The notes beneath the pieces were generated by a model. That model had not been told where the DNA came from. It saw only the letters and a program-made list of their open reading frames with translations, and did not search any database. The position numbers and the translations under genes are program-made. Source: Bacteroidales bacterium (lineage in GTDB: Bacteria; Bacteroidota; Bacteroidia; Bacteroidales; B18-G4). From it: DNA of 64,000 nt. Where the stretch lies: NCBI GenBank assembly GCA_032250805.1, contig JAVVEM010000011.1:9523-73522 (forward strand), in the 5' to 3' direction. Numbering within the stretch: the stretch's first letter is position 1; each line of letters starts with the position of its first letter. This document shows, one piece after another, positions 1 to 15,270 of the stretch.

Positions 1-128
1 TCGTAAAGCACACCGTAGAATTCCTTTGTGTCGCCATTTTCTGAACCGGCATTTAGTTTTTCACCTGTAGCCAGCGATAGTCCGGTGAGTCCGAGTACCT
101 GTAGAAAATTTCTTCGATTAATTTCCAT
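1..128 (-). CDS. 5' end of a Tat-exported 4Fe-4S dicluster protein (HybA/NrfC/HmcB-like); continues beyond the left edge
   Basis: Not in the ORF track. Read by hand from ATG at 128: MEINRRNFLQVLGLTGLSLATGEKLNAGSENGDTKEFYGVLYD. Twin-arginine motif NRRNFL, then GVLYD, which in HybA-type proteins precedes the first CxxCxxC cluster (cysteines lie outside the window). Confidence 0.7.
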   Translation of the reverse strand, partial: MEINRRNFLQVLGLTGLSLATGEKLNAGSENGDTKEFYGVLY

Positions 129-198
129 TTCCAGCGATTTAGATTATGATTAATGTTTTGGTTTTAGTTTTGGTTTGTTTCATGCCCTTACAAGCAGA

Positions 199-1884
199 TC
201 ATTTGCTCAGGTCGAGAAAATAAGCCTGAAAATCTTCCCATGTTTCCGGGCCCAGCTCAGCAAGGATGCTGTCTCTGATCTCTCCTCCATCCTGTAAAAT
301 GATCATCGACATATCAAATTGTTTGTTCGAAAGCGCTGCAGCCAGGAAATCCTTCAGGCGCGTAAACTCTGAAGTTAACCACACCCGGTATTTTTCGGCT
401 GTTTGAAGCTTTTTTACATCCTCCGCCCAGTTGTCGGGCTCTATTATGTAAACCCAGCCTTTATCATAAGGAGATGTATTGATCATTGATGAATTTTCGA
501 AAAGTTGTTCGTTGATCTCCCTGATCACACCGCTGAATGGGGCATATATCGTGAGCCGTTTGCCTCTTTGTATGATCGACAGCAAGGCTTCGCCTTTTGT
601 TACCGTTTCGCCCTTGATTTTCATTTTCAGGCGGGTAACCTTCCCAACAACGTGCTGGAGGAAATCGTCGATGCCAACTTTCACGGCTCCGTCTTTTTCC
701 CTGAATGCCCAGGTGTGGTTTCTGTCGAAATACAGCCCGCCGGGTGCGCCCAGTGAGCTTTCGCTGAAACCACTGCGGCTGCCTAAGATCTGATGGCTGA
801 TCTTTGTTTTTTTGACCAGCAAATGCCTGAATAAAAACGACAACAATATGATAAGCAGGATGGCTCCGGCAAATATGATCCATCCCGGTTGTTTGATCGC
901 AGGAATTCCGCTTGGGGGTGCGTAGGGCAGTGTAAGCGGACTGAACTTTTGCAGTTGCGATAATCTTTCACTGTTCACCAGCGGGTTGTATCCAAATACA
1001 CCGAGTGATGATTGTCCGTCGCTCAGGATCCATTTCAGAAATGCAACTTCACTTTCATTTACCGGTTGCGATTCGGAGATAAAATGAATATTACTTACCA
1101 GCGACCTGGGATATTTGCCGATCCATACTCCCCTGGCTACTGTATTGATATCCTCGTATATGTTTTCCATATAATCAAGCCTGCCATTCCCGTTCCTGTC
1201 GATGGGCAGAAACCTGATCCCTTCAGCAAGCTTCTGTGTAACCGGATCGATCAAACAGCCCAATCTGCAGAATGCAATGGCAAAAGGGTCGTCCCTGACT
1301 GCATCAAGAACAGCATTTTCCTGTGACAGGCTGATCTTTCCTTCAGCATAGTCTTCTGCATCAAGGAATTTTCCAACACTGCTTATTGCACGGTCACGGT
1401 CTGTAATATATAATTGTACAGTATGATCTGTTTTTGTTCCTGTGAGCTTTCCCCATTTTTGATTGTTGCCGCTGAGCAGTGTCGCAAGTTCATCAGACCT
1501 GACCCCTTTTTGATAAAGCACATCAATGAATGGGTTGTTTTCGTTAATCACCGGAACAATAACATCATGCCCAAGGGTTATGCTCCAGGCCTGTTCATAT
1601 ATGCCCGGGCTGAGATAGTGTGTTGAGAATATACCGCTATGGGCCGACAGTACATCCTGACTGCCAGCTTCGGGCATAACATCTACCTCTATGTTTATCT
1701 CCGGGCGGGTCAGGCTGTATTTTTCAGCCCATTGAGCCAGCAGGGGCTGAAGCTCAGGCGTACATGCCAGTTTAATTATTGTTTCCTGACCGGGAATGGA
1801 ACTGCCGGTTGATTGATCTGCGTGCAGGTTTCCCATACTTAGTAAGCAAAAAATGCTGATTACGAATATGATACGTGTTTTCAT
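199..1884 (-). CDS. Fusion: signal peptide + PstS-like periplasmic binding domain + one TM helix + GcvH-like domain
   Basis: N-terminal signal peptide; PBP-like core with PIDRNGNGRLD...GKYP as in Bacteroidota PstS homologues; TM WIIFAGAILLIILLSFLF; H-protein motifs LYFDRNHTW, VKVGIDDF, IYAPFSG, INTSPYDKGW. Confidence 0.8.
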   Translation of the reverse strand: MKTRIIFVISIFCLLSMGNLHADQSTGSSIPGQETIIKLACTPELQPLLAQWAEKYSLTRPEINIEVDVMPEAGSQDVLSAHSGIFSTHYLSPGIYEQAWSITLGHDVIVPVINENNPFIDVLYQKGVRSDELATLLSGNNQKWGKLTGTKTDHTVQLYITDRDRAISSVGKFLDAEDYAEGKISLSQENAVLDAVRDDPFAIAFCRLGCLIDPVTQKLAEGIRFLPIDRNGNGRLDYMENIYEDINTVARGVWIGKYPRSLVSNIHFISESQPVNESEVAFLKWILSDGQSSLGVFGYNPLVNSERLSQLQKFSPLTLPYAPPSGIPAIKQPGWIIFAGAILLIILLSFLFRHLLVKKTKISHQILGSRSGFSESSLGAPGGLYFDRNHTWAFREKDGAVKVGIDDFLQHVVGKVTRLKMKIKGETVTKGEALLSIIQRGKRLTIYAPFSGVIREINEQLFENSSMINTSPYDKGWVYIIEPDNWAEDVKKLQTAEKYRVWLTSEFTRLKDFLAAALSNKQFDMSMIILQDGGEIRDSILAELGPETWEDFQAYFLDLSK

Positions 1885-1916
1885 AGCCCTTCATGTTTAG
1901 GTTCAATTTATTGATG

Positions 1917-1931
1917 TCAATAAGGGTGCCA
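1917..1931 (-). promoter_or_regulatory. Putative sigma54 (-24/-12) promoter
   Basis: Minus strand reads TGGCAC-CCTTA-TTGA against consensus TGGCAC-N5-TTGC, about 33 nt upstream of the ATG at 1884. Confidence 0.6.
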
Positions 1932-1982
1932 AATAAAATAATAACAGTAAAAACCTGAATAACAGTGTAATATGAAAGGGGT

Positions 1983-2111
1983 TGTTTAATTTATAAACAT
2001 AGTAAGTGTTGAATATCCTTACACATAAAATAAATTTCCGGCTTAGAGCTATGGTGGGCTATGTTTAGGTGTGTGTGTTGAATAATTCATCACATGATGA
2101 TAAATTCACCA
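1983..2111. promoter_or_regulatory. Four related 17-bp imperfect palindromes, candidate enhancer-binding-protein sites
   Basis: TGTTTAATTTATAAACA (1983-1999), TGTTGAATATCCTTACA (2007-2023), TGTTGAATAATTCATCA (2076-2092), TGATGATAAATTCACCA (2095-2111). TGT-N11-ACA type, upstream of the sigma54-like promoter. Confidence 0.5.
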
Positions 2112-2214
2112 TATTTTGAAATATTTGTCCGGTTTTGTCCGGGGTCGCTAGAAAAAATTTACAAAAAAATGATAAAAGAGCTGCATTCGTCAGCGAAAAA
2201 GCAGAATTTTCCTG

Positions 2215-5040
2215 TTATGGCTCTGTAAGCTCATATCCCATTTCTTTTCCTTTCTTTATGGCAGGGATTCCCTGTTCCATCCAAAGCGGGGCCGGAGCGC
2301 CTTTCAGGTAGTGGTCGAAGAACTGCTGCATGCGTATGCTGAGATCCTTGCAGTCGGCGCGACGCTTGAGGTTGTGCGGGGCGCCGTTATACGTAAGCAT
2401 CCAAACAGCTTTGTTAAGCCTGCGCAGGGCCACGAAATACTCAATACCCTGATACCACGGCACTGCTCCGTCATTATCGTTATGCATGATCAATAGCGGG
2501 GTTTCTACCTTATCGGCATAGAACAGCGGCGAATTTTCGATATATCTCAGGGGTTTTTCCCATAAAGTTCCACCGATCCGGCTCTGGGATCCTTCGTACT
2601 GGAACATTCTGCTCATGCCTGAGCCCCAACGTATCCCTCCATAGGCGCTGGTCATGTTACTAACGGGGGCACCGGCCATGGCAGCGGCAAACATATTGGT
2701 TTGCGTTATCAGCCAGGCTACCTGGTATCCGCCCCAGCTTTGTCCCTGTATGCCAATGTGATCTTTGTCAACCCAGGGGTGTTTCAACAGGTGGAGGGCA
2801 CCGCTAACAATGGCATTGTAGGCACTTTGTCCGGGGTATCCGGTTTTATAAATAATGTCGGGGACGAAAACAAGGTAACCATTGCTGGTATAAAAGCTAA
2901 AGTTTATTGTGGAACGGCTCGGTCGTGGCGTGTAATGGCTGTGCAGCCTGCTCGAATATTTTTCGTAAAAATAAACGATCATCGGATAACTGCTGTCGGG
3001 ATTAAAGTTCTCAGGTTTGTAAAGCAATCCTTCCATTTCGGCACCATCGGCCGAAGGCCACTGTATCAACTCAACACTGCCCCATAGGTATTTATCCTGT
3101 TGCGGATTTATATCTGATATTTTTTTAGGGTGGCTAAAATCCCTTTCACTGATCCACAGATCGGGGTATTCAACAAAACTCATGCGATTCCATATCAGCA
3201 GCCCGGCATTTTTTGCTTTGTCCGGCCTCTGAAAGTGAAAGTCTTCCAACAGTATCTTCTCCAAACGCGGCTCTTTTGCAATGGTGAGATCATAGAAACC
3301 GCTCTGGCGTGTTTCTTCATTCACTGCCGACAGGAGTAATTTTTCGTTTTGCGGAATAAATACTTCGTCGGGGTCGAGCCTGATATACCTGAACCTCATT
3401 TTCTGTTCTCTGCCACCGCTCAGGTTTACCGGATCTTTATCCCCTTCGGGGTCAAACTTCCATATATCATACCTGTCATATACCAGCAGCATCTCATCAT
3501 TCGCTGTCCAGCCCATAATGCCATAAGGGCCCGGATCTGTAGGCATATCAAATTCCTCATAGCTGAAGCTCACCGGAAGGCCCTTGGTTAGCTTGTGAAA
3601 CTCGCCGCTTTTTACTGTGTAGGTATTCCAACTGCTGTCGTTCTCCTCATAATAAACAACATAACGCCCTAATTGTGAAAGCGAAGCACTTGATTGCAGT
3701 TTCTCAAGGATAAGTTTTTTATCTCCGTTTTCAATGTTGATAAGATAAACATCATGGTACCTGTTTGCATCCCACGAAAGGTATTTTCGGTATGGTTTGC
3801 CTGAAAATCCTAAAGCATAGGGATGCTGGTGCTTCCGGTCAAGCGCAATGCGGTCGAGGTTTTCGTCTTGCAGTTGCACCATGGTCTTTTTGGGGATATG
3901 ATACACCGCCAGATAGTTCTTCTTTTTGTCATTTTCGAGCTCTTTAAGTTGCTGCGGTTGCAACAGATCATCTTTCCAGTTCCAGATGTCAACGCTCACT
4001 TTTTCATCTTCCGTAAGGCTGTCTTCCGGCTCTTTTTGGGGGGTTGCTGCTGTGCCAAAATACAAGCGCATTCCGTTTTCTGAAAAATCAGGGGTTCCGT
4101 TCTCTGATACACCCCAACTATCGGGCATTGCCTTTGATGCAGTGTCGACGATCACCCTTGTAGTGTTTTCTGCAATTTTACCCAGTCTGAGGTCGTATAC
4201 TTTAATTTTGCCGGTATCGGCAGAAAAGATATAGGCAAGTTGTGTGCCCGTCTTATCCGGGGTGATCTTCATGGCGAAACCGGGCCCGCTGTATATCGTG
4301 TCGCTTCTGGTTCCGGGGTAAGTAAGATAATGTACATATACAGAATCGATGCTGTCGTTGCGTGTACTTATAAACGTGAGCAGGCTGCCGTCCTCTGAAA
4401 AGCTGTATTCAGTTACATGCTTATATGAAGCCTCTTCGCCATTTATTGGATTGAAAACTACCAGTGTATTCCCTTGCTGTTTCTTTTTCTTTGGTTTCTT
4501 TTTATCCGGCTCTTTTGTTCCGGCCGCTGCCACTGAGTCGGAAATTTCTGCAGTATCGGCCGAAGGCTTTTCCTTATCCAGCAGATAGGCGATCCATGCC
4601 CTTTCTTCTTTGGGTATCTTAAATGATTTTATTTGTGCAATCCTGATGAGGCTGTCGGCATCAGTCAGGTATATGCCGAGTGAGTCGGCCGGCAATTCGT
4701 CTTTCTTTTTGCCGTCCAGTTTGGCTTTCCTCACCGTATCTTTTTGGAGCTTTATTGCAAAGGCTATGAAATGGTCATTGGCCGATATTCTGGCACCGGA
4801 TCCACGCTTGAACGAATGGTAAACATTTTTCTGCACATCGTAGAGGCGGAGTATTCCATCACCATCCTGGGGGTTGACTTCAAAGCTTACCCAATGGCCC
4901 GAATTGCTTATTTGTTGATTTTCCAGTGTTTTCCAGTCGTCGTAATCAGCATGTGTCAGCGGCTTTTTATCTTGTCCGTTTACCGAAGGTTGAAAAATGA
5001 ACAGGAATAAGGCGAAGATCAGAAGATAATTTTTTCTCAT
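2215..5040 (-). CDS. S9 family (prolyl oligopeptidase/acylaminoacyl-peptidase-like) secreted peptidase
   Basis: GQSWGG nucleophile motif, Asp in NDNDGAV, His in APHNL, beta-propeller-like N-terminus. Start moved to MRKNYLL (5040), which gives a signal peptide. Confidence 0.9.
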   Translation of the reverse strand: MRKNYLLIFALFLFIFQPSVNGQDKKPLTHADYDDWKTLENQQISNSGHWVSFEVNPQDGDGILRLYDVQKNVYHSFKRGSGARISANDHFIAFAIKLQKDTVRKAKLDGKKKDELPADSLGIYLTDADSLIRIAQIKSFKIPKEERAWIAYLLDKEKPSADTAEISDSVAAAGTKEPDKKKPKKKKQQGNTLVVFNPINGEEASYKHVTEYSFSEDGSLLTFISTRNDSIDSVYVHYLTYPGTRSDTIYSGPGFAMKITPDKTGTQLAYIFSADTGKIKVYDLRLGKIAENTTRVIVDTASKAMPDSWGVSENGTPDFSENGMRLYFGTAATPQKEPEDSLTEDEKVSVDIWNWKDDLLQPQQLKELENDKKKNYLAVYHIPKKTMVQLQDENLDRIALDRKHQHPYALGFSGKPYRKYLSWDANRYHDVYLINIENGDKKLILEKLQSSASLSQLGRYVVYYEENDSSWNTYTVKSGEFHKLTKGLPVSFSYEEFDMPTDPGPYGIMGWTANDEMLLVYDRYDIWKFDPEGDKDPVNLSGGREQKMRFRYIRLDPDEVFIPQNEKLLLSAVNEETRQSGFYDLTIAKEPRLEKILLEDFHFQRPDKAKNAGLLIWNRMSFVEYPDLWISERDFSHPKKISDINPQQDKYLWGSVELIQWPSADGAEMEGLLYKPENFNPDSSYPMIVYFYEKYSSRLHSHYTPRPSRSTINFSFYTSNGYLVFVPDIIYKTGYPGQSAYNAIVSGALHLLKHPWVDKDHIGIQGQSWGGYQVAWLITQTNMFAAAMAGAPVSNMTSAYGGIRWGSGMSRMFQYEGSQSRIGGTLWEKPLRYIENSPLFYADKVETPLLIMHNDNDGAVPWYQGIEYFVALRRLNKAVWMLTYNGAPHNLKRRADCKDLSIRMQQFFDHYLKGAPAPLWMEQGIPAIKKGKEMGYELTEP

Positions 5041-5195
5041 TATGATTTTTTTGGGGGCAGAATGATGCCTGTATGAATAATTGCCTTCAAAATTAAACAA
5101 ATCAGTTAAATTGAAAAATTATGCCATTCACGAAGCATTTTATTAAATTTGTGTTAAATTAGGTTAATATTAATTTTTACCAGATAAATAATGAG

Positions 5196-5203
5196 TAATT
5201 TTG
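5196..5203 (+). promoter_or_regulatory. Bacteroidota -7 promoter element of the glycogen operon
   Basis: TAATTTTG matches TAnnTTTG, 41 nt before the ATG at 5245. Confidence 0.5.
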
Positions 5204-5244
5204 CCACTCGTTGATCACGTATTAATCAGGCAATTATTAAAGAA

Positions 5245-7197
5245 ATGAGCTATATTAAATTTGACAAGAATAAGTTAATAAACCTGGAGTATTCACTTAA
5301 GCGTGAATTGCTCCGCTCAAACCGTGCAGGAGCATATTCCAGCCGCACCATTATCGGTTGTAATACGCGAAAGTATCATGGGTTGCTTATCGTTCCCCAA
5401 CCGGGCCTGGATCATGAGAACCATGTGTTGTTATCGAACCTTGATGAGGTCATTGTACAGAATAATGCTGAATTCAATCTCGGTATTCACAAATACCCCG
5501 GCGGCATATACAGCCCCGGCGGGCATAAATATATACGGGATTTTAGCACCGAGCCCATTCCCAGCCTGGTATACAGGGTAGGAGGGGTTGTTCTCAGGAA
5601 AGAGTTAATTTTTGCCGAGAACCACGACAGGATGTTGATCCGGTATACGCTCGAGGATGCCCATTCGCCAACAAAATTGCGATTCAGGCCTTTCCTGGCT
5701 TTTCGCAATATGCATAAACTTTCGAAAGCGAATTTTTATATAAATGATAAGTACAGAAAGGCCCCCAACGGGATCAGGATGCGTCTTTATGACGGGTATA
5801 CGCCCATTTTTATGCAATTTTCCAAGAAAGTTGAATATACCCATGTTCCCGACTGGTACCATAATATCGAGTACCAGGAGGAAATGGAGCGTGGGTATGA
5901 TTATAAGGAGGACCTTTTTGTTCCTGGATTTTTTGAAGTGGATATCAAAAAAGGCGAAAGCATAATTTTTTGTGCAGGCACTTCGGAAGTTAATCCTGCT
6001 TCCATAAAGCGGTCTTTTACCTCTGAGGTTAAGAAGCGCACACCGCGCAATAACTTTGAGAACTGTCTCAGGAACTCGGCTCAGCAATTTATTATCCGGC
6101 GCGATAATAAAACCTGGGTTGTTGCTGGCTTTCCGTGGTTCGGGCGCTGGGGCAGGGATACTTTTATTGCACTCCCCGGCCTGACCCTGAGCAATGACGA
6201 CCCTGCAACATGCAAAGCGGTGATCGATTCAATGCTTGCCGACCTCAAAGGGCCGCTCTTTCCGAATATTGGTATGGGGCATGATTCGGCTTACAACTCG
6301 GTTGATGCTCCGTTGTGGTTTTTCTGGGCATTACAGCAGTATGCTGCCTATACCGGAGAGCATTCATCAATATGGAAGGCATATGGCCGTAAGATGAAAA
6401 TGATCCTCGAAGGTTACCGCAAGGGCACGGAATTTAATATTGGCATGCTGGAAAACGGACTGATCAGGGCTGGTGAACCGGGGCATGCCCTTACCTGGAT
6501 GGATGCAGTTGTTGATGGAAAGCCTGTTACACCCAGGATCGGCCTTCCTGTCGAGATCAACGCACTCTGGTATAATGCCATCATGTTCAGCCTTGAGCTG
6601 GCACGGAAGGCAGATGATAATAAGTTTGTAAAACACTGGGAGCCCGTGGCAGAGATGATCCCTCAGGCATTTAAAAGCACTTTCTGGAGCGAAGCGAAAG
6701 GCTATCTTGCCGATTATGTCGACGGGGAGCATACCGACTGGTCGGTGCGGCCCAATCAGGTGATCGCAGCTTCGCTGCCATACCGCCCAATTGATGAGTC
6801 GATATGTCTTTCGCTGATCAGCACAGTGCAGAAAGTCTTGCTTACCACCCGCGGATTGCGTTCCTTATCGCCGCAGGATCCAAATTATCAAGGCATCTAT
6901 TATGGTGACCAGGCAACACGCGACCAGGCCTATCATCAGGGAACTGTCTGGCCATGGCTGTTCGGGCATTTTGCCGAAGCATACCTGAGGATACACGGAA
7001 AATCGGGTGTGGATTATATTGAAACACTGTATAATGGTTTCGAGCCGGTGATGACCGAAGCAGGGATCGGATCCGTATCAGAAGTTTATGACGGTGATCC
7101 GCCGCATCTTCCCGGGGGCACGATTTCGCAGGCATGGAGTGTTTCTGAATTGCTAAGAGTATATAAATTACTGCAGGAATACCGAAACAAAGAATGA
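5245..7197 (+). CDS. Glycogen debranching enzyme (amylo-alpha-1,6-glucosidase, GDE_N + GDE_C)
   Basis: TRKYHGLL, AGFPWFGRWGRDTFI, LTWMDA, RPNQ, YHQGTVWPW and QAWSVSE motifs. Confidence 0.92.
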   Translation: MSYIKFDKNKLINLEYSLKRELLRSNRAGAYSSRTIIGCNTRKYHGLLIVPQPGLDHENHVLLSNLDEVIVQNNAEFNLGIHKYPGGIYSPGGHKYIRDFSTEPIPSLVYRVGGVVLRKELIFAENHDRMLIRYTLEDAHSPTKLRFRPFLAFRNMHKLSKANFYINDKYRKAPNGIRMRLYDGYTPIFMQFSKKVEYTHVPDWYHNIEYQEEMERGYDYKEDLFVPGFFEVDIKKGESIIFCAGTSEVNPASIKRSFTSEVKKRTPRNNFENCLRNSAQQFIIRRDNKTWVVAGFPWFGRWGRDTFIALPGLTLSNDDPATCKAVIDSMLADLKGPLFPNIGMGHDSAYNSVDAPLWFFWALQQYAAYTGEHSSIWKAYGRKMKMILEGYRKGTEFNIGMLENGLIRAGEPGHALTWMDAVVDGKPVTPRIGLPVEINALWYNAIMFSLELARKADDNKFVKHWEPVAEMIPQAFKSTFWSEAKGYLADYVDGEHTDWSVRPNQVIAASLPYRPIDESICLSLISTVQKVLLTTRGLRSLSPQDPNYQGIYYGDQATRDQAYHQGTVWPWLFGHFAEAYLRIHGKSGVDYIETLYNGFEPVMTEAGIGSVSEVYDGDPPHLPGGTISQAWSVSELLRVYKLLQEYRNKE

Positions 7198-7225
7198 AAA
7201 TATTAATCACTATAACGATCCGCTG

Positions 7226-8503
7226 ATGAAAGTATTAATGTTTGGCTGGGAATTCCCGCCGCATATTTCCGGAGGACTTGGCACGGCCTGCTATGGAATG
7301 ACCAAAGGGCTCATGAAACATGGCGTGGAAGTGCTGTTTGTAGTTCCGAAAGCATATGGCGATGAAGATCAGCAGGCTGTACGGCTGATCAATGCCAGTG
7401 ATATCAGTGTGGATTTCCGCGATAAGAAATATGAAGAATACTGGCAGCGTATAACCTATATGGAGATCGGTTCCAACCTGATTCCCTATGTGGGCCCTGA
7501 AGAGTTCAGGAGGATCATGGAAGCAAAGGAGCTTGAAAGTATCAGCAGTACTGATCATGTACTTTCCGAAAAGTTTGAATTTTCAGGAAAATATGGTACA
7601 GATCTGATGGACGAAGTGAAACGTTATGCTCTGATCGCTTCTGCAATTGCTGCAACATCTGATTTTGACGTGATCCACGCACACGACTGGCTCACATACG
7701 CTGCAGGCGTGGCAGCCAAGAGTGTGAGCGGAAAGCCCCTGGTGGTGCATATGCATGCTACCGAGTTCGACCGTTCGGGAGATAATGTAAACCAGAACGT
7801 GTATGATCTTGAAAGGAAAGGAATGGAAGAGGCCGATCGTGTGATCGCCGTAAGCAACCTTACACGGAAAACGGTGATCGAACGTTATGGCATCAACCCC
7901 GATAAGGTGTTTACCGTATACAATGCCGTTGAGCCGAATGAGAAAGGAAACCAGTATTACCACAGGGGCGTGCAGGAAAAAGTAGTTACCTTTCTGGGTC
8001 GCATCACTTTTCAGAAAGGACCTGATTATTTTGTTGAAGCTGCCAGGAAAGTACTCAATAAAGATCCTCATGTAAGGTTTGTTATGGCCGGCAGCGGCGA
8101 TATGATGAACAAAACAATAAAGCGGGTTGCCGAGCTGAAAATGGGCGACAGGTTTCATTTTACAGGATTCCTGAAAGGCGATGATGTGGATCATATGTTC
8201 GGGCTGAGCGATGTATTTGTGATGCCATCCGTATCTGAACCTTTTGGTATTGTTCCGCTCGAAGCGATGCGTTCGAATGTGCCGGTGGTTATTTCAAAAC
8301 AATCAGGCGTTTCGGAGATCCTGAGGCATGCCCTGAAGATCGATTTTTGGGATATCGACGCCATGGCCGATTCAATATACGGGCTTTTGCACTATGAAGG
8401 CTTGTCGAAAATGTTTAAACACTATGGCAAGGATGAGGTCGACAACCTGAAATGGGAAAATGCCGCATTCCATATTAAAGAAGTATATAAAAGTGTTTTA
8501 TAA
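7226..8503 (+). CDS. GT4 glycosyltransferase of the Bacteroidota glycogen cluster
   Basis: MFGWEFPPHISGGLG, HAHDW, HATEFDR, GRITFQKG, SEPFGIVPLEA. Confidence 0.9.
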   Translation: MKVLMFGWEFPPHISGGLGTACYGMTKGLMKHGVEVLFVVPKAYGDEDQQAVRLINASDISVDFRDKKYEEYWQRITYMEIGSNLIPYVGPEEFRRIMEAKELESISSTDHVLSEKFEFSGKYGTDLMDEVKRYALIASAIAATSDFDVIHAHDWLTYAAGVAAKSVSGKPLVVHMHATEFDRSGDNVNQNVYDLERKGMEEADRVIAVSNLTRKTVIERYGINPDKVFTVYNAVEPNEKGNQYYHRGVQEKVVTFLGRITFQKGPDYFVEAARKVLNKDPHVRFVMAGSGDMMNKTIKRVAELKMGDRFHFTGFLKGDDVDHMFGLSDVFVMPSVSEPFGIVPLEAMRSNVPVVISKQSGVSEILRHALKIDFWDIDAMADSIYGLLHYEGLSKMFKHYGKDEVDNLKWENAAFHIKEVYKSVL

Positions 8504-8520
8504 GAAAGGGAATTTGTAAT

Positions 8521-10098
8521 ATGAGATCCATTTGTTTTTATTTCCAGGTCCATCAGCCATACAGGCTGCGGACATACCGCTTTTTTGATATCGGTAATAA
8601 CCATCATTATTATAATGATCAGGAAAACCGTTTTATAATGCGCCGGGTGGCTGAAAAATGTTATCTGCCGATGAACCGCCTGTTGCTTGATCTTATAAAT
8701 GAATATGGTGTTGCATTCAAGGTGAGCTTTTCGATATCAGGCACAGCCATGGAGCAGTTCGAAAACTATGCTCCTGATGTACTGGATAGCTTCAGGGAAC
8801 TGGCAGCTACCGGAAATGTTGAGTTTATTGCCGAAACACAGTCACACTCGCTGGTGGCCCTGAAAAACAGGGAGGAATTTGTTGCCCAGGTGGATGCCCA
8901 AAAGCAAAAAGTTGAGCAATATTTTGGCCAGGTTCCAACAACATTCAGAAATACCGAGCTGATCTATTCTGATGAGATCGGCAGCATGGTGGCCGATATG
9001 GGGTTTAATCTGATGCTTACTGAAGGAGCAAAGCATGTACTCGGCTGGAAAAGCCCGAACTATATGTATGCCAACGCAATTAATCCCAAACTAAAGCTTC
9101 TCTTGAAAAACTTCAGGCTCAGCGACGACATCGCTTTCAGATTTTCGCAGCAGAGCTGGCCCGAATGGCCACTCACAACCGAGAAATTTGTGGGCTGGCT
9201 CAATGATATCGACCAGAAAGAAGAAGTGGTGAACCTGTTTATGGATTATGAAACTTTTGGCGAGCATCAATGGCCTGAAACGGGTATCTTCGAATTTATG
9301 CGTGCGCTGCCGGCAAGGGTTTTCTCACACTCTAACTATACCTTTAATACACCCTCCGAACTGGCCGAAAAATTGCAACCTGTATCAGCAGTCCACGTGC
9401 CTTATCCCATTTCATGGGCCGATGAAGAACGCGATCTTACCGCCTGGCTGGGCAATGAACTCCAGGATGAAGCTTTCGATAAATTGTACTCACTCAGCGA
9501 GGGGGTAAAGAAATGTGCCGATCCGGGCATTATTCGCGACTGGCGGCTGCTCCAAACAAGCGACCACTTCTACTATATGTGTACCAAGTGGTTCTCTGAT
9601 GGCGATGTGCATAAATATTTTAATCCCTATGGCACACCCTATGAAGCATTTATTAATTATATGAATATACTTTCTGATTTTATGGTCCGCGTTGAGGAGC
9701 ATTGCCATCAATCGTCATTTTCCGAAAATATCGATGATACGATCGAAAGAGCGGCCGAATTCGGCAAATCTTTAAAAGATAAGACCTTCAAAATGGGCGA
9801 AAAGGTAAAGGAAAAGGTGAGGGATACCAATATTGGCGACAAAAGCCTGAATGATATCGCTTCAATGTCGAATGCCCGCATCAGGGAATTGTTGCGCAGG
9901 GTGGATATTGAGGAACTGTCGGTAGCGCTTCAAAACGCCAGTGATGATGTGCGCGAGCGGATACTGCCTAACCTTGGCAGCAGGGCACGAAAAAAATATG
10001 ATCAGGTGCAGGCCGATCTGAGGAAATTTAAAAAATCCGACATTAAAAAATATACAGCCAATATTGAAAAGGAAATTAAAAACCTGTTCAGGAAATAA
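8521..10098 (+). CDS. GH57 alpha-amylase-type hydrolase with a C-terminal FliG-C-like domain
   Basis: GH57 motifs FQVHQP, FRNTELIY, DYETFGEHQW, QTSDHFYY. The last ~85 aa (from 9844) resemble the FliG C-terminal domain. Confidence 0.88.
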   Translation: MRSICFYFQVHQPYRLRTYRFFDIGNNHHYYNDQENRFIMRRVAEKCYLPMNRLLLDLINEYGVAFKVSFSISGTAMEQFENYAPDVLDSFRELAATGNVEFIAETQSHSLVALKNREEFVAQVDAQKQKVEQYFGQVPTTFRNTELIYSDEIGSMVADMGFNLMLTEGAKHVLGWKSPNYMYANAINPKLKLLLKNFRLSDDIAFRFSQQSWPEWPLTTEKFVGWLNDIDQKEEVVNLFMDYETFGEHQWPETGIFEFMRALPARVFSHSNYTFNTPSELAEKLQPVSAVHVPYPISWADEERDLTAWLGNELQDEAFDKLYSLSEGVKKCADPGIIRDWRLLQTSDHFYYMCTKWFSDGDVHKYFNPYGTPYEAFINYMNILSDFMVRVEEHCHQSSFSENIDDTIERAAEFGKSLKDKTFKMGEKVKEKVRDTNIGDKSLNDIASMSNARIRELLRRVDIEELSVALQNASDDVRERILPNLGSRARKKYDQVQADLRKFKKSDIKKYTANIEKEIKNLFRK

Positions 10099-10131
10099 TG
10101 CCGTTTACAGGCATCAGTAGAAAGAGGAATT

Positions 10132-10905
10132 ATGGATTTGAAGATCACAGGACAGCTTTTTATCGTTAGCGGAGCAAGCTCAGGATTGGGTAAAGCAGTG
10201 GCTAAAGTGTTGCTCGATAACGGTGCTGGTGTAATTGCCCTGGCCCGGAACGAAGATAAGCTAAATGAACTTTGTAATGAATATACACGGGCAGAAAAAG
10301 TCAGCGGCGATGTTTTGAGCGATGAAAGCCTCAGGGCAGTTATCGAAAAAATTGATGGCCGCGAATTGTCGGGGGTATTTGTCAATGCCGGCGGACCTCC
10401 TGCGCTTTCGTTCCTGGAAACGGAGCTTAGCGACTGGGATGAAGCTTATCGCCTGCTCCTTCGCTGGAAGGTTGCCCTGATAAGGATGCTTTTACCGGTA
10501 TTCATGAAGCAGGGCTACGGAAGGATATTGTTCAGCGAGAGTTCAACACTGAAGCAGCCCATCGAAAACCTGGTGCTCAGCAACTCCTTGCGCATGGCTG
10601 TTGCAGGCATGGCTAAAACCCTTTCGCAGGAGGTTGCAGATCGGGGAATAACAGTAAACATTATAGGTCCCGGCTTTCATGATACGGAAGCTGTTAACAG
10701 GCTGTTTATAAAGAAAAGCAAACTCGAAGGGATCTCCTTCGATGAAGCCAGGGCGGCAGGCGTATCGGGGATCCCGGTCGGAAAGATCGGCGATCCGGCC
10801 GAATTTGCCTCGCTCGCGGCATGGCTTCTCTCACCCTTATCAGGCTTCGTTACCGGGCAGGTATATACGCTTGATGGGGGAACGACCCGGTATTCTCTCG
10901 GATAA
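10132..10905 (+). CDS. Short-chain dehydrogenase/reductase
   Basis: SGASSGLG Rossmann motif, NAGGPP, LSNSLR (non-canonical YxxxK region), GPG, DGG at the C-terminus. Confidence 0.88.
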   Translation: MDLKITGQLFIVSGASSGLGKAVAKVLLDNGAGVIALARNEDKLNELCNEYTRAEKVSGDVLSDESLRAVIEKIDGRELSGVFVNAGGPPALSFLETELSDWDEAYRLLLRWKVALIRMLLPVFMKQGYGRILFSESSTLKQPIENLVLSNSLRMAVAGMAKTLSQEVADRGITVNIIGPGFHDTEAVNRLFIKKSKLEGISFDEARAAGVSGIPVGKIGDPAEFASLAAWLLSPLSGFVTGQVYTLDGGTTRYSLG

Positions 10906-11016
10906 CAATACACAATCCACTGCTTTGGAGGATGGTTTTTGATATCTTCCGAAGGAGATCAGGAAAAAAGCAATAGCGCAATTCGACTATTTTTGCATGA
11001 ATTTTAAAAAACGAAA

Positions 11017-14000
11017 ATGATGAGTGAAAAAGTAATAAAACCCGATTATATTTTTGAAACCAGCTGGGAGATATGTAATAAGGTGGGAGGGATCTATACC
11101 GTCCTGTCAACCAAAGCCCGCACCATTACTGAGGACTATGGCGATAATTATATCCTAATAGGCCCGGATGTTTGGATGGAGACCAGTGAGCACCCTGATT
11201 TTATTGAAGATTTTGATATTCTGACCGAATGGAGAGAAAAGGCTGCCCAGGAAGGACTCAACATCCGCCTGGGACGCTGGAATGTGAGTGGTTATCCACT
11301 GGTCATCCTGGTTGACTTTAAACCCCTGTTCACTGAAAAAGATAAGATATTTTATGAATTGTGGGAACAATTTAAGCTCGACTCCCTTTCGGGACAGTGG
11401 GATTATATCGAACCTGCCATGTTTGGCTATGCTGCAGCCAGGGTGATTGAAAGTTATTATGAGTTTCACCTTTCTTCAAAAGACCGCATCGTTGCACATT
11501 TTCATGAATGGATGACCGGTACCGGGATATTGTACCTTAAAACTCATGTGGCACAGGTGGCTACTGTCTTTACAAGCCATGCCACAGTGCTTGGACGCTC
11601 AATTGCAGGCAACGGACTCCCGCTTTACGGAGATATGGAGAAATACAAGGCTGAAGAAACGGCACGTAGTTTTGGGGTTCTTTCAAAACAATCACTCGAA
11701 TCAATGAGTGCCAAACAGGCCGATAGCTTCACAACGGTTAGTGAGATCACAGCCAGGGAATGCAAGCATTTTCTTAGAAAAACACCTGATGTGATCACGG
11801 TGAATGGTTTTGAGGATTCATTTGTTCCGCCGGACGACAAATTTGATGAAAAAAGACAGGAGGCCCGCCAAAAACTTTTATCGGTCGCCTCAGCTGTTAC
11901 AGGGCAAAAAATGCCTGACGACAGCCTGCTGGTGATCAATAGTGGCCGTTACGAATTCCATAATAAGGGAATGGACATTTTTATTGATGCCCTGGCCGAA
12001 CTAAATAAAATGGATGATCTGCCGAAAAAGGTGATTGCTTACATCACTGTGCCGGCAAATCATGCCGGTGCACGTCAGGATGTGCTCAAGCGCATGAATG
12101 ACCTTCATTCGGAACCGGTCGAAAAACCATGGCTGTCGCATTATCTTTTCGACGAAGAGAAGGACCCGAGCATTCGGAGGATCAAAGAGAAAGGATTGAT
12201 GAACAACGAGAACAGCAAGGTAAGTGTGATCTTTGTCCCGGCATATCTTGATGGCCGGGATGGCATTTTTAATATGCCTTACTACGACATACTTATCGGA
12301 TTTGATGTTTCTGTTTTTCCATCATACTACGAACCCTGGGGCTACACTCCCCTCGAAAGCATCGCTTTTAGTATTCCTACTGTTACCACTTCCCTGGCGG
12401 GATTTGGCAGTTGGGTGAATGATTTTCACAAGGTTGAGAAAAAAGGCGTTATCGTATCCGAGAGGACCGATGACAATGAGGCTGATGTGGTAAAAGACAT
12501 CTTTGGCACCCTGAAAGCTTTCGCTGAAATGAGTGCTGCAAAATATGATGAAGCAGCCCGGGAGGCTTACAAAATATCGCGGGATGCACTCTGGCAATCG
12601 TTTATCGATAATTACAGGAAGGCATGGTCGGTGGCGCTGCACAAAGTGGGCGGACGTGAAGAATTGTTCAGTGGCAAGCAACAGCAATTCAGGTTAAGGG
12701 AATATATTCCTGCCACGGATATTGATGCCGAACCCAAGTGGAAAAAGATCCTGGTGAAAGCGAAGATCCCACAAAAGCTGATTGGTTTACAGGAACTTTC
12801 AAAAAACCTTTGGTGGAGCTGGAATTGTGAGGCAGAGGCAATATTCAAGTATATGCATCGCGAAAAATGGGACGCATCGGGTCATAACCCGGTAGCATTT
12901 CTCGAAGCCATACCCATGGACCGTTACAAGGAACTGGAAAAGGACAAGGAATTTTTAAAAATGCTTGAGTCCGTAATGAACCAATTTACAAAATACATTG
13001 AAAAAAAACCCGCCGCAGGATCACCGCTGATCTCATACTTCAGCATGGAGTATGGCCTGCACACATCAATTAAGATATATTCAGGCGGACTGGGTATCCT
13101 GGCCGGGGATTACCTGAAACAGGCCAGCGACTCCAACCTGAACATGATCGGGATCGGGCTCATGTACCGCTACGGCTACTTCAACCAAAGGCTTTCGCCG
13201 CATGGGGAGCAGATCGCCGAGTATGTCCGGCAACGCTTTTCATACCTTCCGATCTCGCCAGTAAGGGATGAACAAGGCAAATGGATAAAGATAAACCTTG
13301 CCTTACCAGGCCGCTCACTGACGGCCAAAGCCTGGCAGCTTGATATCGGCAGGATAAAATTATACCTGCTCGATACCGATATCAGTGACAACCAGGACAA
13401 AGATCGCACGATTACCCACCATCTGTATGGCGGCAACAACGAACATCGCCTGAAGCAGGAGCTGTTGCTGGGTGTTGGAGGTATTCGATTGCTCGAGGCA
13501 TTGAAGCTCAGCCCAAACGTATACCACTGCAATGAAGGACATGCCGCATTTATTGGTATTGAAAGGATGCGCCGGCTGATTGAAAGCCGCATCATTACTT
13601 ACCCCATGGCAAAGGAGATCGTTAGGGCATCAACGCTGTTTACGACCCATACGCCTGTACCGGCCGGGCATGATGCTTTTAGCGAGGATCTGCTTCGCAC
13701 ATATATTCCACACTATCCGGGCAGGCTCAACATATCGTGGGATGAATTTATGCAACTTGGAAGGGCAAACCCGCATTCCAAAGCAGATCCCTTCTCCATG
13801 AGTGTTCTGGCTGTAAACCTTTCGGGCGAGGTAAATGGTGTTAGCCGGATCCATGGCAAGGAATCGCGTAAAATGTTTAGTGTGATGTATCCGGGATACT
13901 TCCCCGAAGAAGTGAATATTGGCCACATTACCAATGGGGTGCATTATGCCACATGGACATCCAGGATATGGATAGACTTGTTTAAAGAAACCTTCGGGCC

Positions 14001-15270
14001 GGGCTTTTATGAAAATCAATCGGATCCGAAGTACTGGGAAAAAGTGCGCGATATCCCCGATAATGTGATATGGAATGTAAGACAGGAATTAAAATCGGAA
14101 TTGTTTGCCTTTTTAAAAAAACGGCTCACCGAAGATATGGCCCACCGTCAGGAAGCTCCGCAGATCATTATCAATACTATCGACAAACTTGATGCAAACA
14201 TCCTGACCATTGGCTTTGCCCGCCGCTTTGCTACCTATAAACGGGCTCAACTCTTGTTTAAGAATGAAGCCCAACTGGCGCGCATTGTCAATAACCCCGA
14301 CCGCCCGGTGCAGTTTATCTTTGCAGGAAAGGCACACCCGAACGATAAGGCAGGCCAGGACCTGATCCGCCATATCATTGAAACATCGCGTAAACCCGAA
14401 TTTCAGGGAAGGATCGTTTTTCTTGAGAACTATGATATGCAGCTTGCCCGGAAACTTGTGCAGGGAGTCGATGTTTGGTTGAATACACCAACCAGGCCGC
14501 TGGAGGCATCTGGCACAAGCGGGATGAAAGCACTGATGAATGGCGTACTTAATTTTAGTGTGATGGATGGCTGGTGGGCAGAAGGATTCAGGGAAAATGC
14601 CGGCTGGGCGATAGAAGAAAAACGCACTTTCGACAACCAGCAGTTCCAGGACGAACTTGATGCCGAAACAATTTATAATATTTTCGAGGACGATATCATT
14701 CCGCGATTTTATAAATTGAACCAGGATAATGTTCCGGCCGAATGGATCAGGTATGTGAAGAATTCAATAGCAGGAATATGCAGTGAATTTACCATGAAAC
14801 GCATGCTCGATCAATATGTTGAGAAATATTATAATTCTATTGCAGAACGTGCAGTTGCCATAAAAGCAAATAATTGTGCACTGGCAGCAGAAATTGCCGA
14901 CTGGAAGTCACGCATCAGGGCGCATTGGCCCGAAATTGTTGTAAAATCAGTTAAAGTGCCTGATGCCAAAACGCGGGCATTGACCTTTGGTGAAAGCTTT
15001 AAGGTGGAGGTTCAGCTCGATTGTGGCCAACTGTCGCCCGAAGACATCGAACTGGAAGTGGTTTTTGGCCAGCAGGCAAACCTCGGCCTCGAAGATGTTC
15101 TATTTGTGAAAAAGCTCAGGCATAGATCCACAAACAAGGAAGGCTTGTCGGTTTTTGCAGGTGATTTTGAAATCGACCACGCCGGATCGCTCGATTATGC
15201 CATCAGGATTTTTCCCAGCAATCCTCTGCTGCCGAACAAACAGGAAACGGGATTATTGCGGTATATTTAG
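11017..15270 (+). CDS. glgP: Fused GT3 glycogen synthase + GT35 alpha-glucan phosphorylase
   Basis: N-half WEICNKVGGIYTV, FHEWMTG, GRYEFHNKG, PSYYEPWGYTP (GT3). C-half NLWWSW, YFSMEYG, YSGGLGILAGD, EASGTSGMK (GT35 PLP lysine). Single open frame; TATTTTTG promoter at 10988-10995. Confidence 0.92.
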   Translation: MMSEKVIKPDYIFETSWEICNKVGGIYTVLSTKARTITEDYGDNYILIGPDVWMETSEHPDFIEDFDILTEWREKAAQEGLNIRLGRWNVSGYPLVILVDFKPLFTEKDKIFYELWEQFKLDSLSGQWDYIEPAMFGYAAARVIESYYEFHLSSKDRIVAHFHEWMTGTGILYLKTHVAQVATVFTSHATVLGRSIAGNGLPLYGDMEKYKAEETARSFGVLSKQSLESMSAKQADSFTTVSEITARECKHFLRKTPDVITVNGFEDSFVPPDDKFDEKRQEARQKLLSVASAVTGQKMPDDSLLVINSGRYEFHNKGMDIFIDALAELNKMDDLPKKVIAYITVPANHAGARQDVLKRMNDLHSEPVEKPWLSHYLFDEEKDPSIRRIKEKGLMNNENSKVSVIFVPAYLDGRDGIFNMPYYDILIGFDVSVFPSYYEPWGYTPLESIAFSIPTVTTSLAGFGSWVNDFHKVEKKGVIVSERTDDNEADVVKDIFGTLKAFAEMSAAKYDEAAREAYKISRDALWQSFIDNYRKAWSVALHKVGGREELFSGKQQQFRLREYIPATDIDAEPKWKKILVKAKIPQKLIGLQELSKNLWWSWNCEAEAIFKYMHREKWDASGHNPVAFLEAIPMDRYKELEKDKEFLKMLESVMNQFTKYIEKKPAAGSPLISYFSMEYGLHTSIKIYSGGLGILAGDYLKQASDSNLNMIGIGLMYRYGYFNQRLSPHGEQIAEYVRQRFSYLPISPVRDEQGKWIKINLALPGRSLTAKAWQLDIGRIKLYLLDTDISDNQDKDRTITHHLYGGNNEHRLKQELLLGVGGIRLLEALKLSPNVYHCNEGHAAFIGIERMRRLIESRIITYPMAKEIVRASTLFTTHTPVPAGHDAFSEDLLRTYIPHYPGRLNISWDEFMQLGRANPHSKADPFSMSVLAVNLSGEVNGVSRIHGKESRKMFSVMYPGYFPEEVNIGHITNGVHYATWTSRIWIDLFKETFGPGFYENQSDPKYWEKVRDIPDNVIWNVRQELKSELFAFLKKRLTEDMAHRQEAPQIIINTIDKLDANILTIGFARRFATYKRAQLLFKNEAQLARIVNNPDRPVQFIFAGKAHPNDKAGQDLIRHIIETSRKPEFQGRIVFLENYDMQLARKLVQGVDVWLNTPTRPLEASGTSGMKALMNGVLNFSVMDGWWAEGFRENAGWAIEEKRTFDNQQFQDELDAETIYNIFEDDIIPRFYKLNQDNVPAEWIRYVKNSIAGICSEFTMKRMLDQYVEKYYNSIAERAVAIKANNCALAAEIADWKSRIRAHWPEIVVKSVKVPDAKTRALTFGESFKVEVQLDCGQLSPEDIELEVVFGQQANLGLEDVLFVKKLRHRSTNKEGLSVFAGDFEIDHAGSLDYAIRIFPSNPLLPNKQETGLLRYI

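What the first reader, a model, noticed from the sequence alone, without database searches (positions are those of the whole stretch)
199..1884. Single-pass PstS-like/GcvH-like fusion that appears to lack the lipoyl lysine: candidate new transmembrane signalling or redox-coupling module
Seen: one 561-aa frame joins a signal peptide, a periplasmic binding-protein domain with a DxNxNGxxD Ca-loop-like motif, one TM helix and an H-protein fold. Known: GcvH is a small soluble protein lipoylated at the K of ESVKAASDIYAP. Here the same register reads IQRGKRLTIYAP, so Gly occupies the lysine position and ESV is lost. The anion-binding motifs I recall from Bacteroidota PstS (SGAFALYP, RSDACGA) are also not recognisable. 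No gcvT/P or pstCAB genes are in the window. Inference: a periplasmic ligand sensor wired to a non-lipoylated cytoplasmic H-fold interaction domain, heading a respiratory operon rather than serving glycine cleavage or Pi uptake.
Basis: partly seen in the sequence, partly recalled or inferred. Interest (0 to 1): 0.82.

Follow-up and report, generated by a model that had tools for sequence, protein, structure and literature searches.

The report
Membrane-tethered pseudo-H-protein signalling module
A real and widely conserved membrane protein joins a degenerate phosphate-binding-type domain outside the cell to a glycine-cleavage-H-like domain inside that has lost its lipoyl lysine, and it leads a self-regulated operon built around a haem-containing sensor kinase, pointing to an undescribed redox-signalling system.

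Summary
The ORF (window 199-1884, minus strand, 561 aa) is real: signal peptide, PstS-fold periplasmic domain, one TM helix, cytoplasmic GcvH-fold domain plus a family-specific helical C-terminal extension. It is not chimeric. At least 120 full-length homologues exist, 485 of 523 candidate stretches in species genomes encode a relative, and all 80 fetched loci carry it as one frame.

The lipoyl-lysine position holds an invariant Gly. The next residue is Lys in 120 of 120 close homologues, but Arg replaces it in 1 of 110 fusion cluster representatives, 10 of 120 paralogues and several sister-lineage modules, so lipoylation is unlikely. The PstS phosphate motifs are lost; the Ca-loop is retained and also occurs in the genome's true PstS.

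The gene heads a sigma-54 operon: fusion, HmcB/HybA-like FeS protein, HmcC/HybB NrfD-like protein, a second TM-anchored GcvH-like paralogue, a sensor kinase with two invariant c-haem motifs, a sigma-54 response regulator and an M54 peptidase. In sister lineages the same H-fold module is fused to receiver domains beside the same kinase and HmcBC genes.

Best reading: a non-lipoylated H-fold adaptor or output module of a haem-kinase redox-signalling system. Its target is unknown. No description was found in print.

The parts
199..1884 (-). 561-aa ORF: PstS-like domain, TM helix, GcvH-like domain, C-terminal extension (stop codon 199-201)
   Evidence: full-length homologues
1819..1884 (-). Signal peptide, residues 1-22 (hydrophobic core, then LHA before DQ)
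   Evidence: Read from the translation; no predictor run; N-terminal pattern conserved in family consensus
925..1815 (-). Periplasmic PstS-fold (type II binding-protein) domain, residues about 24-320; phosphate ligand motifs not conserved
   Evidence: Model; Foldseek PstS hits E 2e-15 to 1e-13; Pfam PBP_like_2 below cut-off; motif comparison with own PstS
1165..1200 (-). EF-hand-like Ca-loop D229-N231-N233-G234-D237-E240, invariant in the family and also present in the genome's true PstS
1108..1134 (-). Family-specific invariant block RGVWIGKYP (residues 251-259) in the periplasmic domain
817..885 (-). Single transmembrane helix (about residues 334-356) followed by a basic stretch, which places the C-terminal part in the cytoplasm
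   Evidence: Read from the translation; no predictor run
379..744 (-). Cytoplasmic GcvH-fold domain, residues about 381-502
   Evidence: Pfam GCV_H E 2.1e-25; model; Foldseek GcvH hits with TM by target about 0.9
559..564 (-). Hairpin residues G441 (aligned to the lipoyl Lys of true GcvH) and K442 (first residue after the two-residue turn)
202..378 (-). Helical C-terminal extension (residues 503-561) with the invariant QDGG loop; seen only attached to GcvH-like domains
   Evidence: no PDB match beyond the H-fold
1917..1931 (-). Sigma-54-type -24/-12 promoter TGGCAC-N5-TTGA, 33-47 nt upstream of the ATG
   Evidence: same motif in 75 of 78 upstream regions, 0 of 78 on the reverse strand, mean 0.5 of 78 after shuffling
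1983..2111 (-). Three inverted-repeat enhancer-like sites (2095-2111, 2076-2092, 1983-1999) upstream of the promoter
1..128 (-). First 42 codons (twin-arginine signal) of the next gene, the HmcB/HybA-like 4Fe-4S protein; the rest of the operon lies left of the window
   Evidence: L005 8781-9650

Best explanation
The ORF encodes the lead subunit of a conserved, self-regulated redox-signalling unit.

Shown:
- It is a type-I membrane protein. Outside the membrane is a degenerate PstS-fold domain (Ca-loop kept, phosphate ligand motifs lost). Inside is a GcvH-fold domain with Gly at the lipoyl position, plus a family-specific helical extension.
- It is transcribed from a sigma-54 promoter with enhancer-like repeats.
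- Downstream lie an HmcB/HybA-like periplasmic FeS protein, an HmcC/HybB NrfD-type membrane protein, a second TM-anchored H-fold paralogue, a sensor kinase whose periplasmic domain carries two invariant c-haem motifs, a sigma-54 response regulator and an M54 peptidase.
- In sister lineages the same H-fold module is fused to receiver domains next to the same kind of kinase and HmcBC genes.

Inferred:
- The H-fold module is a non-lipoylated protein-interaction output or adaptor of the haem-kinase pathway. It is controlled by transcription here and by phosphorylation in the receiver-fused forms, and it is held at the membrane.
- The kinase's haems report periplasmic or quinone-pool redox state. 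HmcBC acts as an optional wire to menaquinone.
- The PstS-like domain gives the module a periplasmic docking or sensing surface, to the kinase's haem domain, to HmcB or to an unknown ligand.
- The module's binding target is not identified.
For: Fold and domains.

Family: the best 120 homologues are 541-590 aa at 39-45% identity. 485 of 523 candidate stretches in species genomes encode a relative, and all 80 kept loci have it as one frame.

Synteny: of 76 loci with at least 1 kb downstream, 71 have hmcB next. That is 67 by the strict filter plus L036, L043, L044 and L082 as listed. Five have the kinase next. Of 59 loci with at least 7.2 kb downstream, 47 show the full order hmcB-hmcC-TM-GcvH-HK-RR-M54.

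Regulation: the sigma-54 motif is found in 75 of 78 upstream regions, against 0 of 78 on the reverse strand and a mean of 0.5 after shuffling. Conserved inverted repeats lie upstream. In the own genome, only this one of 385 -24/-12-like sites has two or more such repeats. rpoN is present.

Kinase: CxxCH and Cx4CH are invariant in 46 aligned kinases and present in all 8 kinases of diverse operon types. A cytochrome c assembly gene is present.

Receiver fusions: Pfam Response_reg plus GCV_H on 4 proteins. The order hmcB-hmcC-HK-REC+module-REC+module appears in 18 of 26 sister-lineage loci (these loci were chosen by module-match size, not at random). An Atlas structural match links the module, including its extension, to a Response_reg+GCV_H cluster at TM 0.85 over 175 residues.

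Against lipoylation: the lipoyl position is Gly in 120 of 120. In the model K442 sits after the two-residue turn. Arg replaces Lys in 1 of 110 fusion representatives, 10 of 120 paralogues and several sister modules.

Independence from HmcBC: five loci lack it. No HmcC homologue at E<=1e-10 was found in four of those genomes (the fifth, L026, was not searched) or in G073, a sister-lineage genome whose locus L099 also lacks hmcBC.
Against: No binding partner is shown. The only complex prediction gave no verdict (see Tried and rejected).

K442 is almost invariant in the fusion family (229 of 230 across), which could still mean a modification. The genome has an LplA.

Haem attachment, sigma-54 dependence and co-transcription are inferred from motifs only. 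No RNA data were found.

The regulon scan used a crude motif on a genome 95% complete.

In a sample of 300 other genomes of the phylum, no second PstS-fused form appeared; the best foreign match was E 1.4e-31. The fusion is therefore patchy in the sampled high-quality genomes.

HmcBC could be an output, a regulated respiratory module, rather than an input to the kinase. The data do not separate the two.
Confidence: 0.5

Rival explanations
1. Lipoylated membrane-tethered carrier. K442 is lipoylated or otherwise acylated, and the domain shuttles reducing equivalents or an acyl or aminomethyl group between cytoplasmic enzymes and the HmcBC module.
For: K442 is Lys in 120 of 120 close homologues and in 109 of 110 fusion-length cluster representatives. 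The H-fold is well preserved, TM by target about 0.9. The genome has a lipoate-protein ligase. Other non-glycine-cleavage H-like proteins are lipoylated: LbpA (abstract of PMC6067878 in the listing) and GcvH-L (abstract of PMC12440151, same listing).
Against: The Lys is one residue past the canonical position, and in the model it lies after the turn. Arg replaces it in 10 of 120 paralogues, 1 of 110 fusions and the closest sister-lineage TM modules. HmcB has a twin-arginine signal, so its clusters are periplasmic, and no cytoplasmic redox subunit is encoded in the operon. Only one LplA and one BirA were found, neither near the operon.
Confidence: 0.1
2. Substrate receptor of a reductase. The PstS-like domain binds a periplasmic oxyanion or other redox substrate and presents it to HmcB, so that fusion plus HmcBC form a quinol:substrate oxidoreductase without a separate catalytic subunit.
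For: The fusion gene lies directly upstream of hmcB in 71 of 76 loci. The binding-protein fold is intact. Family-specific invariant residues exist in the periplasmic domain.
Against: The four stretches that align with the PstS anion-binding motifs are variable within the family. The fusion persists without HmcBC in five loci, and no HmcC homologue was found in the four of those genomes that were searched. Sister lineages have the same operon with TM-only modules and no binding-protein domain. An FeS ferredoxin-type subunit alone is not a known catalytic site for substrate reduction (general knowledge, recalled).
Confidence: 0.1
3. Decoy H-protein. The non-lipoylatable H-fold module binds the natural partners of GcvH (P-, T- or L-protein, or lipoate ligase) and sequesters or inhibits them at the membrane when the haem kinase signals a given redox state.
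For: GcvH core motifs around H390-x-W392 and G404-x-D406-D407-F408 are conserved alongside true GcvH. The module is membrane-tethered or receiver-controlled. It works without HmcBC. Canonical GcvH and GcvP are present in the genome.
Against: No co-occurrence or interaction test with gcv genes was done. The conserved extra C-terminal extension has no counterpart in GcvH. The tight genomic link to HmcBC in most loci is not explained.
Confidence: 0.15
4. Assembly artefact or chance fusion of two neighbouring genes.
For: None found. The genome is a draft of 105 contigs.
Against: All 80 fetched loci from independent assemblies encode the protein in one frame with matches over residues 1-561 or nearly so. 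120 full-length database proteins were found.
Confidence: 0.01

Closest known systems
GcvH, H-protein of the glycine cleavage system (for example PDB 3a7l, 1onl, 3klr)
   Same: Same fold: Foldseek E about 1e-11, TM by target about 0.9, rmsd 1.3-2.1 A over about 125 columns. Pfam GCV_H is above its cut-off. Core motifs are shared.
   Different: Gly sits at the lipoyl-Lys position. Scores are far below the NCBIfam GcvH cut-offs (83.5 against 117; 70.8 against 115.85). The domain is tethered to the membrane and carries a 60-aa helical extension. It is not next to gcvT or gcvP. The genome has a separate canonical GcvH.
Lipoylated GcvH-like proteins outside glycine cleavage: GcvH-L (PDB 5a35) and LbpA of the sHdr system
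   Same: An H-fold reused outside glycine cleavage. 5a35 is a Foldseek hit at E 9e-6.
   Different: Those proteins are soluble and lipoylated and come with their own ligases or modifying enzymes (abstracts of PMC6067878 and PMC12440151 as listed). Here the Lys is shifted, it is replaceable by Arg, and no ligase is in the operon.
PstS, the phosphate ABC-transporter binding protein (for example PDB 4jwo, 4n13, 1twy)
   Same: Same binding-protein fold: Foldseek E 2e-15 to 1e-13, TM 0.5-0.73. It shares the Ca-loop and several structural motifs with the genome's own PstS.
   Different: The phosphate-binding motifs are not conserved. Pfam and NCBIfam scores are below cut-off. There are no pstCAB neighbours. 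It is fused to a TM helix and a cytoplasmic domain.
HybA/HybB of E. coli hydrogenase 2 and HmcB/HmcC of the Desulfovibrio Hmc complex (neighbouring genes, not the ORF itself)
   Same: The two downstream genes match these models: HmcB E 8e-95, HybA E 3e-67, HmcC E 2e-118, HybB-type E 4e-73.
   Different: All scores are below the equivalog cut-offs. No hydrogenase, cytochrome or HmcDEF genes are in the operon. Instead there are H-fold modules and a haem kinase.
Binding-protein co-sensors of sensor kinases (TorT-TorS, LuxP-LuxQ) and kinase-induced feedback modulators (MgrB, CpxP); recalled, not tested
   Same: A periplasmic binding-protein-fold or small membrane protein encoded with, or induced by, a two-component system and acting on its kinase. 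This analogy is functional only.
   Different: No sequence relation was tested. Those proteins have no cytoplasmic H-fold domain. Binding to the kinase is not shown here.

Membership tests
GcvH (glycine cleavage H-protein) | H-protein fold / Pfam GCV_H match | tested here: met
   Pfam E 2.1e-25, 89.4 bits against cut-off 22.2; Foldseek TM by target about 0.9
GcvH (glycine cleavage H-protein) | Lipoyl-lysine at the tip of the hairpin | tested here: not met
   The aligned position is G441 in 120 of 120. K442 is +1 and lies after the turn in the model. Lipoylation itself is not testable here.
GcvH (glycine cleavage H-protein) | Reaches the NCBIfam equivalog/subfamily cut-off | tested here: not met
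   TIGR00527 70.8 bits against 115.85; NF002270 83.5 against 117
GcvH (glycine cleavage H-protein) | Works with gcvT/gcvP (genomic association) | tested here: not met
   No gcv genes among the operon genes or window 1-12000. GcvP is on contig C13 and canonical GcvH on C12. The rest of the window was not scanned.
PstS / PBP_like_2 phosphate-binding proteins | Type II binding-protein fold closest to PstS | tested here: met
   Foldseek top hits are all PstS-type, E 2e-15 to 1e-13
PstS / PBP_like_2 phosphate-binding proteins | Reaches Pfam/NCBIfam cut-offs | tested here: not met
   PF12849 19.9 bits against 27; TIGR02136 20.8 against 206.6
PstS / PBP_like_2 phosphate-binding proteins | Conserved phosphate-ligand motifs (as in the genome's own PstS) | tested here: not met
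   The four motif stretches of the own PstS align with variable family columns. Which residues bind phosphate is recalled, not computed.
PstS / PBP_like_2 phosphate-binding proteins | Encoded with pstCAB | tested here: not met
   No pst genes in the operon. The true PstS is followed by pstC/pstA-like ORFs on C31 (these two are named by eye from their membrane-protein translations).
Sigma-54-dependent two-component regulon (as the setting of the gene) | -24/-12 promoter, enhancer-like repeats, cognate kinase and sigma-54 activator, rpoN in the genome | tested here: met
   Transcription itself was not tested.
Hmc / Hyb-type NrfCD-like quinone module (as an accessory subunit) | Obligatory co-occurrence with the FeS and NrfD subunits | tested here: not met
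   5 of 76 loci lack hmcB/hmcC. No HmcC homologue at E<=1e-10 in the four of those genomes that were searched.

The most novel reading that the evidence does not exclude
The GcvH fold has been recruited as a new class of signalling output domain: a pseudo-H-protein. It is controlled by a di-haem sensor kinase, either by phosphorylation (receiver-fused forms) or by sigma-54 transcription (TM- and PstS-fused forms). It docks onto the NrfD-type quinone module or onto H-protein partner enzymes, and so couples the redox state of the periplasm or menaquinone pool directly to respiratory or lipoyl-enzyme activity.
Probability: 0.2. Interest if true: 0.85.

Novelty: new variant of a known kind. Interest (0 to 1): 0.68.

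Why it matters
Databases label these proteins 'glycine cleavage system protein H' or 'substrate-binding domain-containing protein' (names). Both names mislead.

The evidence points to a widespread system: relatives were found in 485 candidate stretches of species genomes, and 609 clusters at 50% identity carry the C-terminal extension. In this system a haem-based sensor kinase, an NrfCD-type quinone module and H-fold modules always travel together. Receiver-GcvH response regulators are one of its forms.

If the module is a signalling output, it adds a new output-domain class to two-component systems. It also gives a handle on how anaerobic Bacteroidota and their relatives sense and respond to redox state in sediments and soils.

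The system is directly testable: haem content of the kinase, K442 modification, partners of the module, and operon induction by redox shifts.

Tried and rejected
Complex prediction: kinase cytoplasmic part (residues 228-556, two copies) with the H-fold module. Score 0.00, no verdict. This counts neither for nor against binding.

Sequencing runs: no RNA holder was listed. DNA holders were sediment, soil and rhizosphere metagenomes. Nothing was laid, so there is no statement on expression or habitat.

Literature: no paper was found for GcvH-like + NrfD. One unrelated paper held NrfD-like + glycine cleavage. Searches for GcvH/HmcB/HmcC/HybA/lipoate-binding, response regulator + GcvH + output domain, GCV_H/PF01597 and archaemetzincin/kinase/NrfD/sigma-54/Bacteroidetes gave nothing on this system; only listings and abstracts were seen. 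A preprint on Cache_heme sensors (PMC12889525) was searched for six terms and does not mention this system. I did not test whether the kinase's sensor domain belongs to that family. Supplements are closed and were not seen.

Promoter and enhancer scans: a first sigma-54 regular expression requiring TTGC found only 2 of 77 loci; the family uses TTGA. A first, too strict palindrome scan for enhancer sites found nothing, not even the own locus, and was replaced.

C-terminal extension: the Atlas search found only GcvH-attached clusters and no named family.

The pdb_via_wide library was not on the machine.

Rejected ideas:
- Chimeric assembly.
- A role in phosphate uptake or glycine cleavage.
- Obligatory HmcBC subunit.
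Full report
OBSERVATION. The frame at window 199-1884 (minus strand) is open for 561 codons. Pfam finds GCV_H at residues 384-502 (E 2.1e-25, above cut-off) and PBP_like_2 at 33-289 only below cut-off (E 7e-4). NCBIfam GcvH and PstS models also match below their cut-offs. Two AlphaFold2 models built on 61-row alignments both reach mean pLDDT 82.6. The cytoplasmic model (residues 375-561) matches solved GcvH structures at Foldseek E about 1e-11, TM by target about 0.9, rmsd 1.3-2.1 A. Its last roughly 60 residues are helices with no PDB counterpart. The best hits of the periplasmic model (residues 24-335) are all PstS-type phosphate-binding proteins, E 2e-15 to 1e-13. The signal peptide (1-22) and the single hydrophobic helix (about 334-356, followed by a basic stretch) are read from the sequence; no predictor was run.

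THE LYSINE. Three alignments put the lipoyl Lys of genuine GcvH on G441: phmmer against a PDB GcvH and MAFFT with the genome's own GcvH. The distance between the flanking conserved Gly and Pro is the same in both proteins. In the model the hairpin strands are 433-439 and 442-447, with a two-residue turn R440-G441, so K442 is the first residue after the turn. G441 and K442 are both invariant in 120 of 120 close family members. Among cluster representatives of fusion length, G441 is 110 of 110 and K442 is 109 of 110, with one Arg. In the best 120 members of the paralogue family, the Lys position is K in 110 and R in 10 (of 148 representatives, 134 had no gap in this stretch). In sister-lineage modules the position reads K, R, G, A, E, L, D or W. 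A conserved basic residue that Arg can replace argues for a contact residue, not an acylation site. The genome has one LplA and one BirA, neither near the operon. Lipoylation itself cannot be tested here; I put it at about 10%.

THE PERIPLASMIC DOMAIN. When it is aligned to the family, these four stretches fall on variable family columns. Which residues bind phosphate is my recollection of PstS structures, not a computation. The Ca-loop D229-x-N231-x-N233-G234-x-x-D237-x-x-E240 is invariant but also present in the true PstS, so it is inherited and not new. A family-specific invariant block, RGVWIGKYP (251-259), replaces a different PstS segment. A conserved small-ligand pocket is thus not evident, and a docking role is at least as likely as ligand sensing.

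FAMILY AND SYNTENY. The word-index search gave 937 proteins at E<=1e-3 among 8000 scored. The best 120 are 541-590 aa at 39-45% identity, and sources name them as GcvH/phosphate-binding protein or 'substrate-binding domain-containing protein'. In one genome per species, 523 stretches matched and 485 encode a relative. The 80 kept loci come from Bacteroidales, Prolixibacteraceae, Lentimicrobiaceae, Draconibacterium and Mariniphaga-type assemblies by their record titles. All 80 carry the protein in one frame.

On the own contig the order on the minus strand is:
- the fusion;
- an HmcB/HybA-like FeS protein with a twin-arginine signal;
- an HmcC/HybB NrfD-type protein;
- a 237-aa TM-anchored GcvH-like paralogue, 37% identical over residues 346-558;
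- a sensor kinase;
- a sigma-54 response regulator;
- an M54 peptidase.

Of 59 loci with at least 7.2 kb downstream, 47 show this full order under a strict filter, 2 show only kinase-regulator-M54, and 10 are partial. By the listing, most of these 10 carry the same genes in the same order, with some genes fragmented, duplicated, missing or filtered out. Of 76 loci with at least 1 kb downstream, 71 have hmcB next and 5 (L026, L042, L053, L057, L070) have the kinase next. No HmcC homologue at E<=1e-10 was found in four of those genomes (L026 was not searched; completeness of the four is not reported) or in G073, 99% complete, a sister-lineage genome whose locus L099 also lacks hmcBC. The upstream S9 peptidase gene is not conserved; no match to it was listed.

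REGULATION. A sigma-54-type element TGGCAY-N5-TTGA lies about 50 nt upstream of the start codon in 75 of 78 upstream regions, against 0 of 78 on the reverse strand and a mean of 0.5 of 78 in shuffles. In the window it is at 1917-1931. Anchoring on it reveals conserved inverted repeats of the TGTTGA-N5-TCAACA type in two groups upstream. The window has three, at 2095-2111, 2076-2092 and 1983-1999. Of 385 -24/-12-like sites in the own genome, only this one has two or more such repeats; it has three, 9 sites have one and 375 have none. rpoN is present. The operon thus looks like the main or only target of its own regulator. This is an inference from motifs.

THE KINASE. Its periplasmic domain has CxxCH (C132, C135, H136) and Cx4CH (C183, C188, H189), then H191. 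All are invariant in 46 aligned kinases and conserved at 97% or more in 66. A cytochrome c assembly gene is present. The same two motifs occur in all 8 kinases of different operon types, and in 24 of 26 sister-lineage loci. The other two loci end at a contig edge before the kinase position.

SISTER LINEAGES. A scan of 300 other genomes of the phylum with the cytoplasmic module found no second PstS-fused form (best foreign match E 1.4e-31). It did find many 220-250-aa forms and 385-480-aa forms. I fetched 26 such loci, chosen by match size and so not a random sample. Two archetypes appear:
- Type A: module, hmcB, hmcC, module, haem kinase, sigma-54 regulator, M54. Here the first module is TM-only and the second often has a Cys-rich N-terminus in place of a TM helix. 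One locus, L099, lacks hmcBC.
- Type B (18 loci): hmcB, hmcC, haem kinase, then two proteins that Pfam reads as Response_reg plus GCV_H. The longer one has an N-terminal hydrophobic helix.

The ESM Atlas independently lists a Response_reg+GCV_H cluster as a structural neighbour of residues 375-560, at TM 0.85. The C-terminal extension profile finds 609 cluster representatives at E<=1e-3 among 1.84 billion, and the Atlas finds the extension only on GcvH-like clusters.

MECHANISM. Shown:
- the anatomy;
- the conserved gene order;
- the promoter and enhancer motifs;
- the haem motifs;
- the receiver fusions;
- persistence of the fusion without HmcBC.

Inferred:
- The H-fold module is the protein-interaction output or adaptor of the haem-kinase pathway. 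It is the one element besides the kinase present in every variant, and in type B it is the only output domain.
- In the window's type, control has moved to transcription, and the module is tethered to the membrane.
- HmcBC, whose FeS subunit is periplasmic and has no catalytic partner in the operon, most plausibly exchanges electrons between menaquinone and the kinase's haems. It could equally be the regulated target.
- The PstS-like domain adds a periplasmic docking or sensing surface.

The module's target is open: the kinase, HmcC, the M54 peptidase or GcvH partner enzymes.

COMPARISON AND NOVELTY. The ORF has the fold of GcvH and of PstS but fails the defining functional features of both (see Membership tests). 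The nearest functional analogies are binding-protein co-sensors and kinase-induced feedback modulators. These are recalled and were not tested. I class it as a new variant of a known kind: a two-component redox-sensing unit with an NrfCD-type module. Its distinguishing part, a pseudo-H-protein module, may prove to be a new output-domain class.

LIMITS. There are no expression data, no partner and no chemistry. TM and signal-peptide calls are by eye. The tallies come from 80 best loci out of 485 and from 26 hand-picked sister loci. Related genomes are not independent.

Noticed in passing
L005 5045-6715 (own contig C33, left of the window): The sensor kinase has a periplasmic domain with invariant CxxCH and Cx4CH-x-H motifs. 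It is a two-haem c-type sensor found next to every GcvH-like module examined. Whether it belongs to a described haem-sensor family was not tested.
   Followed up: partly
L094 6956-7699, L095 3963-4790 and 10349-11236, L099 7575-8387: A second module type has a Cys-rich N-terminus (pattern C-x-W-M...C...C-x-x-C) in place of a TM helix in front of the GcvH-like domain. This may be a metal site.
   Followed up: no
L005 6806-7519 (237-aa paralogue): The roughly 16 residues ahead of its TM helix, predicted to face the periplasm, are highly conserved across 64 sequences. This suggests a periplasmic contact.
   Followed up: no
L005 3076-3639: An M54 (archaemetzincin-type) peptidase gene closes the operon in nearly all sigma-54-type loci and is absent from the receiver-fused type. 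Its role is unknown.
   Followed up: partly
window 8521-10098 (+): A GH57 glycoside hydrolase carries a C-terminal tail that matches the FliG C-terminal domain (Pfam E 2.2e-11).
   Followed up: no
window 11017-15270 (+): A 1417-aa protein joins Glycogen_syn, DUF3417 and Phosphorylase domains. It sits in a glycogen cluster with a debranching enzyme (5245-7197) and a GT4/GT5 transferase (7226-8503).
   Followed up: no
L097 7073-9460: One sister-lineage HmcC-like ORF is 795 aa, about twice the usual length. It may be a fusion or carry an extra domain.
   Followed up: no
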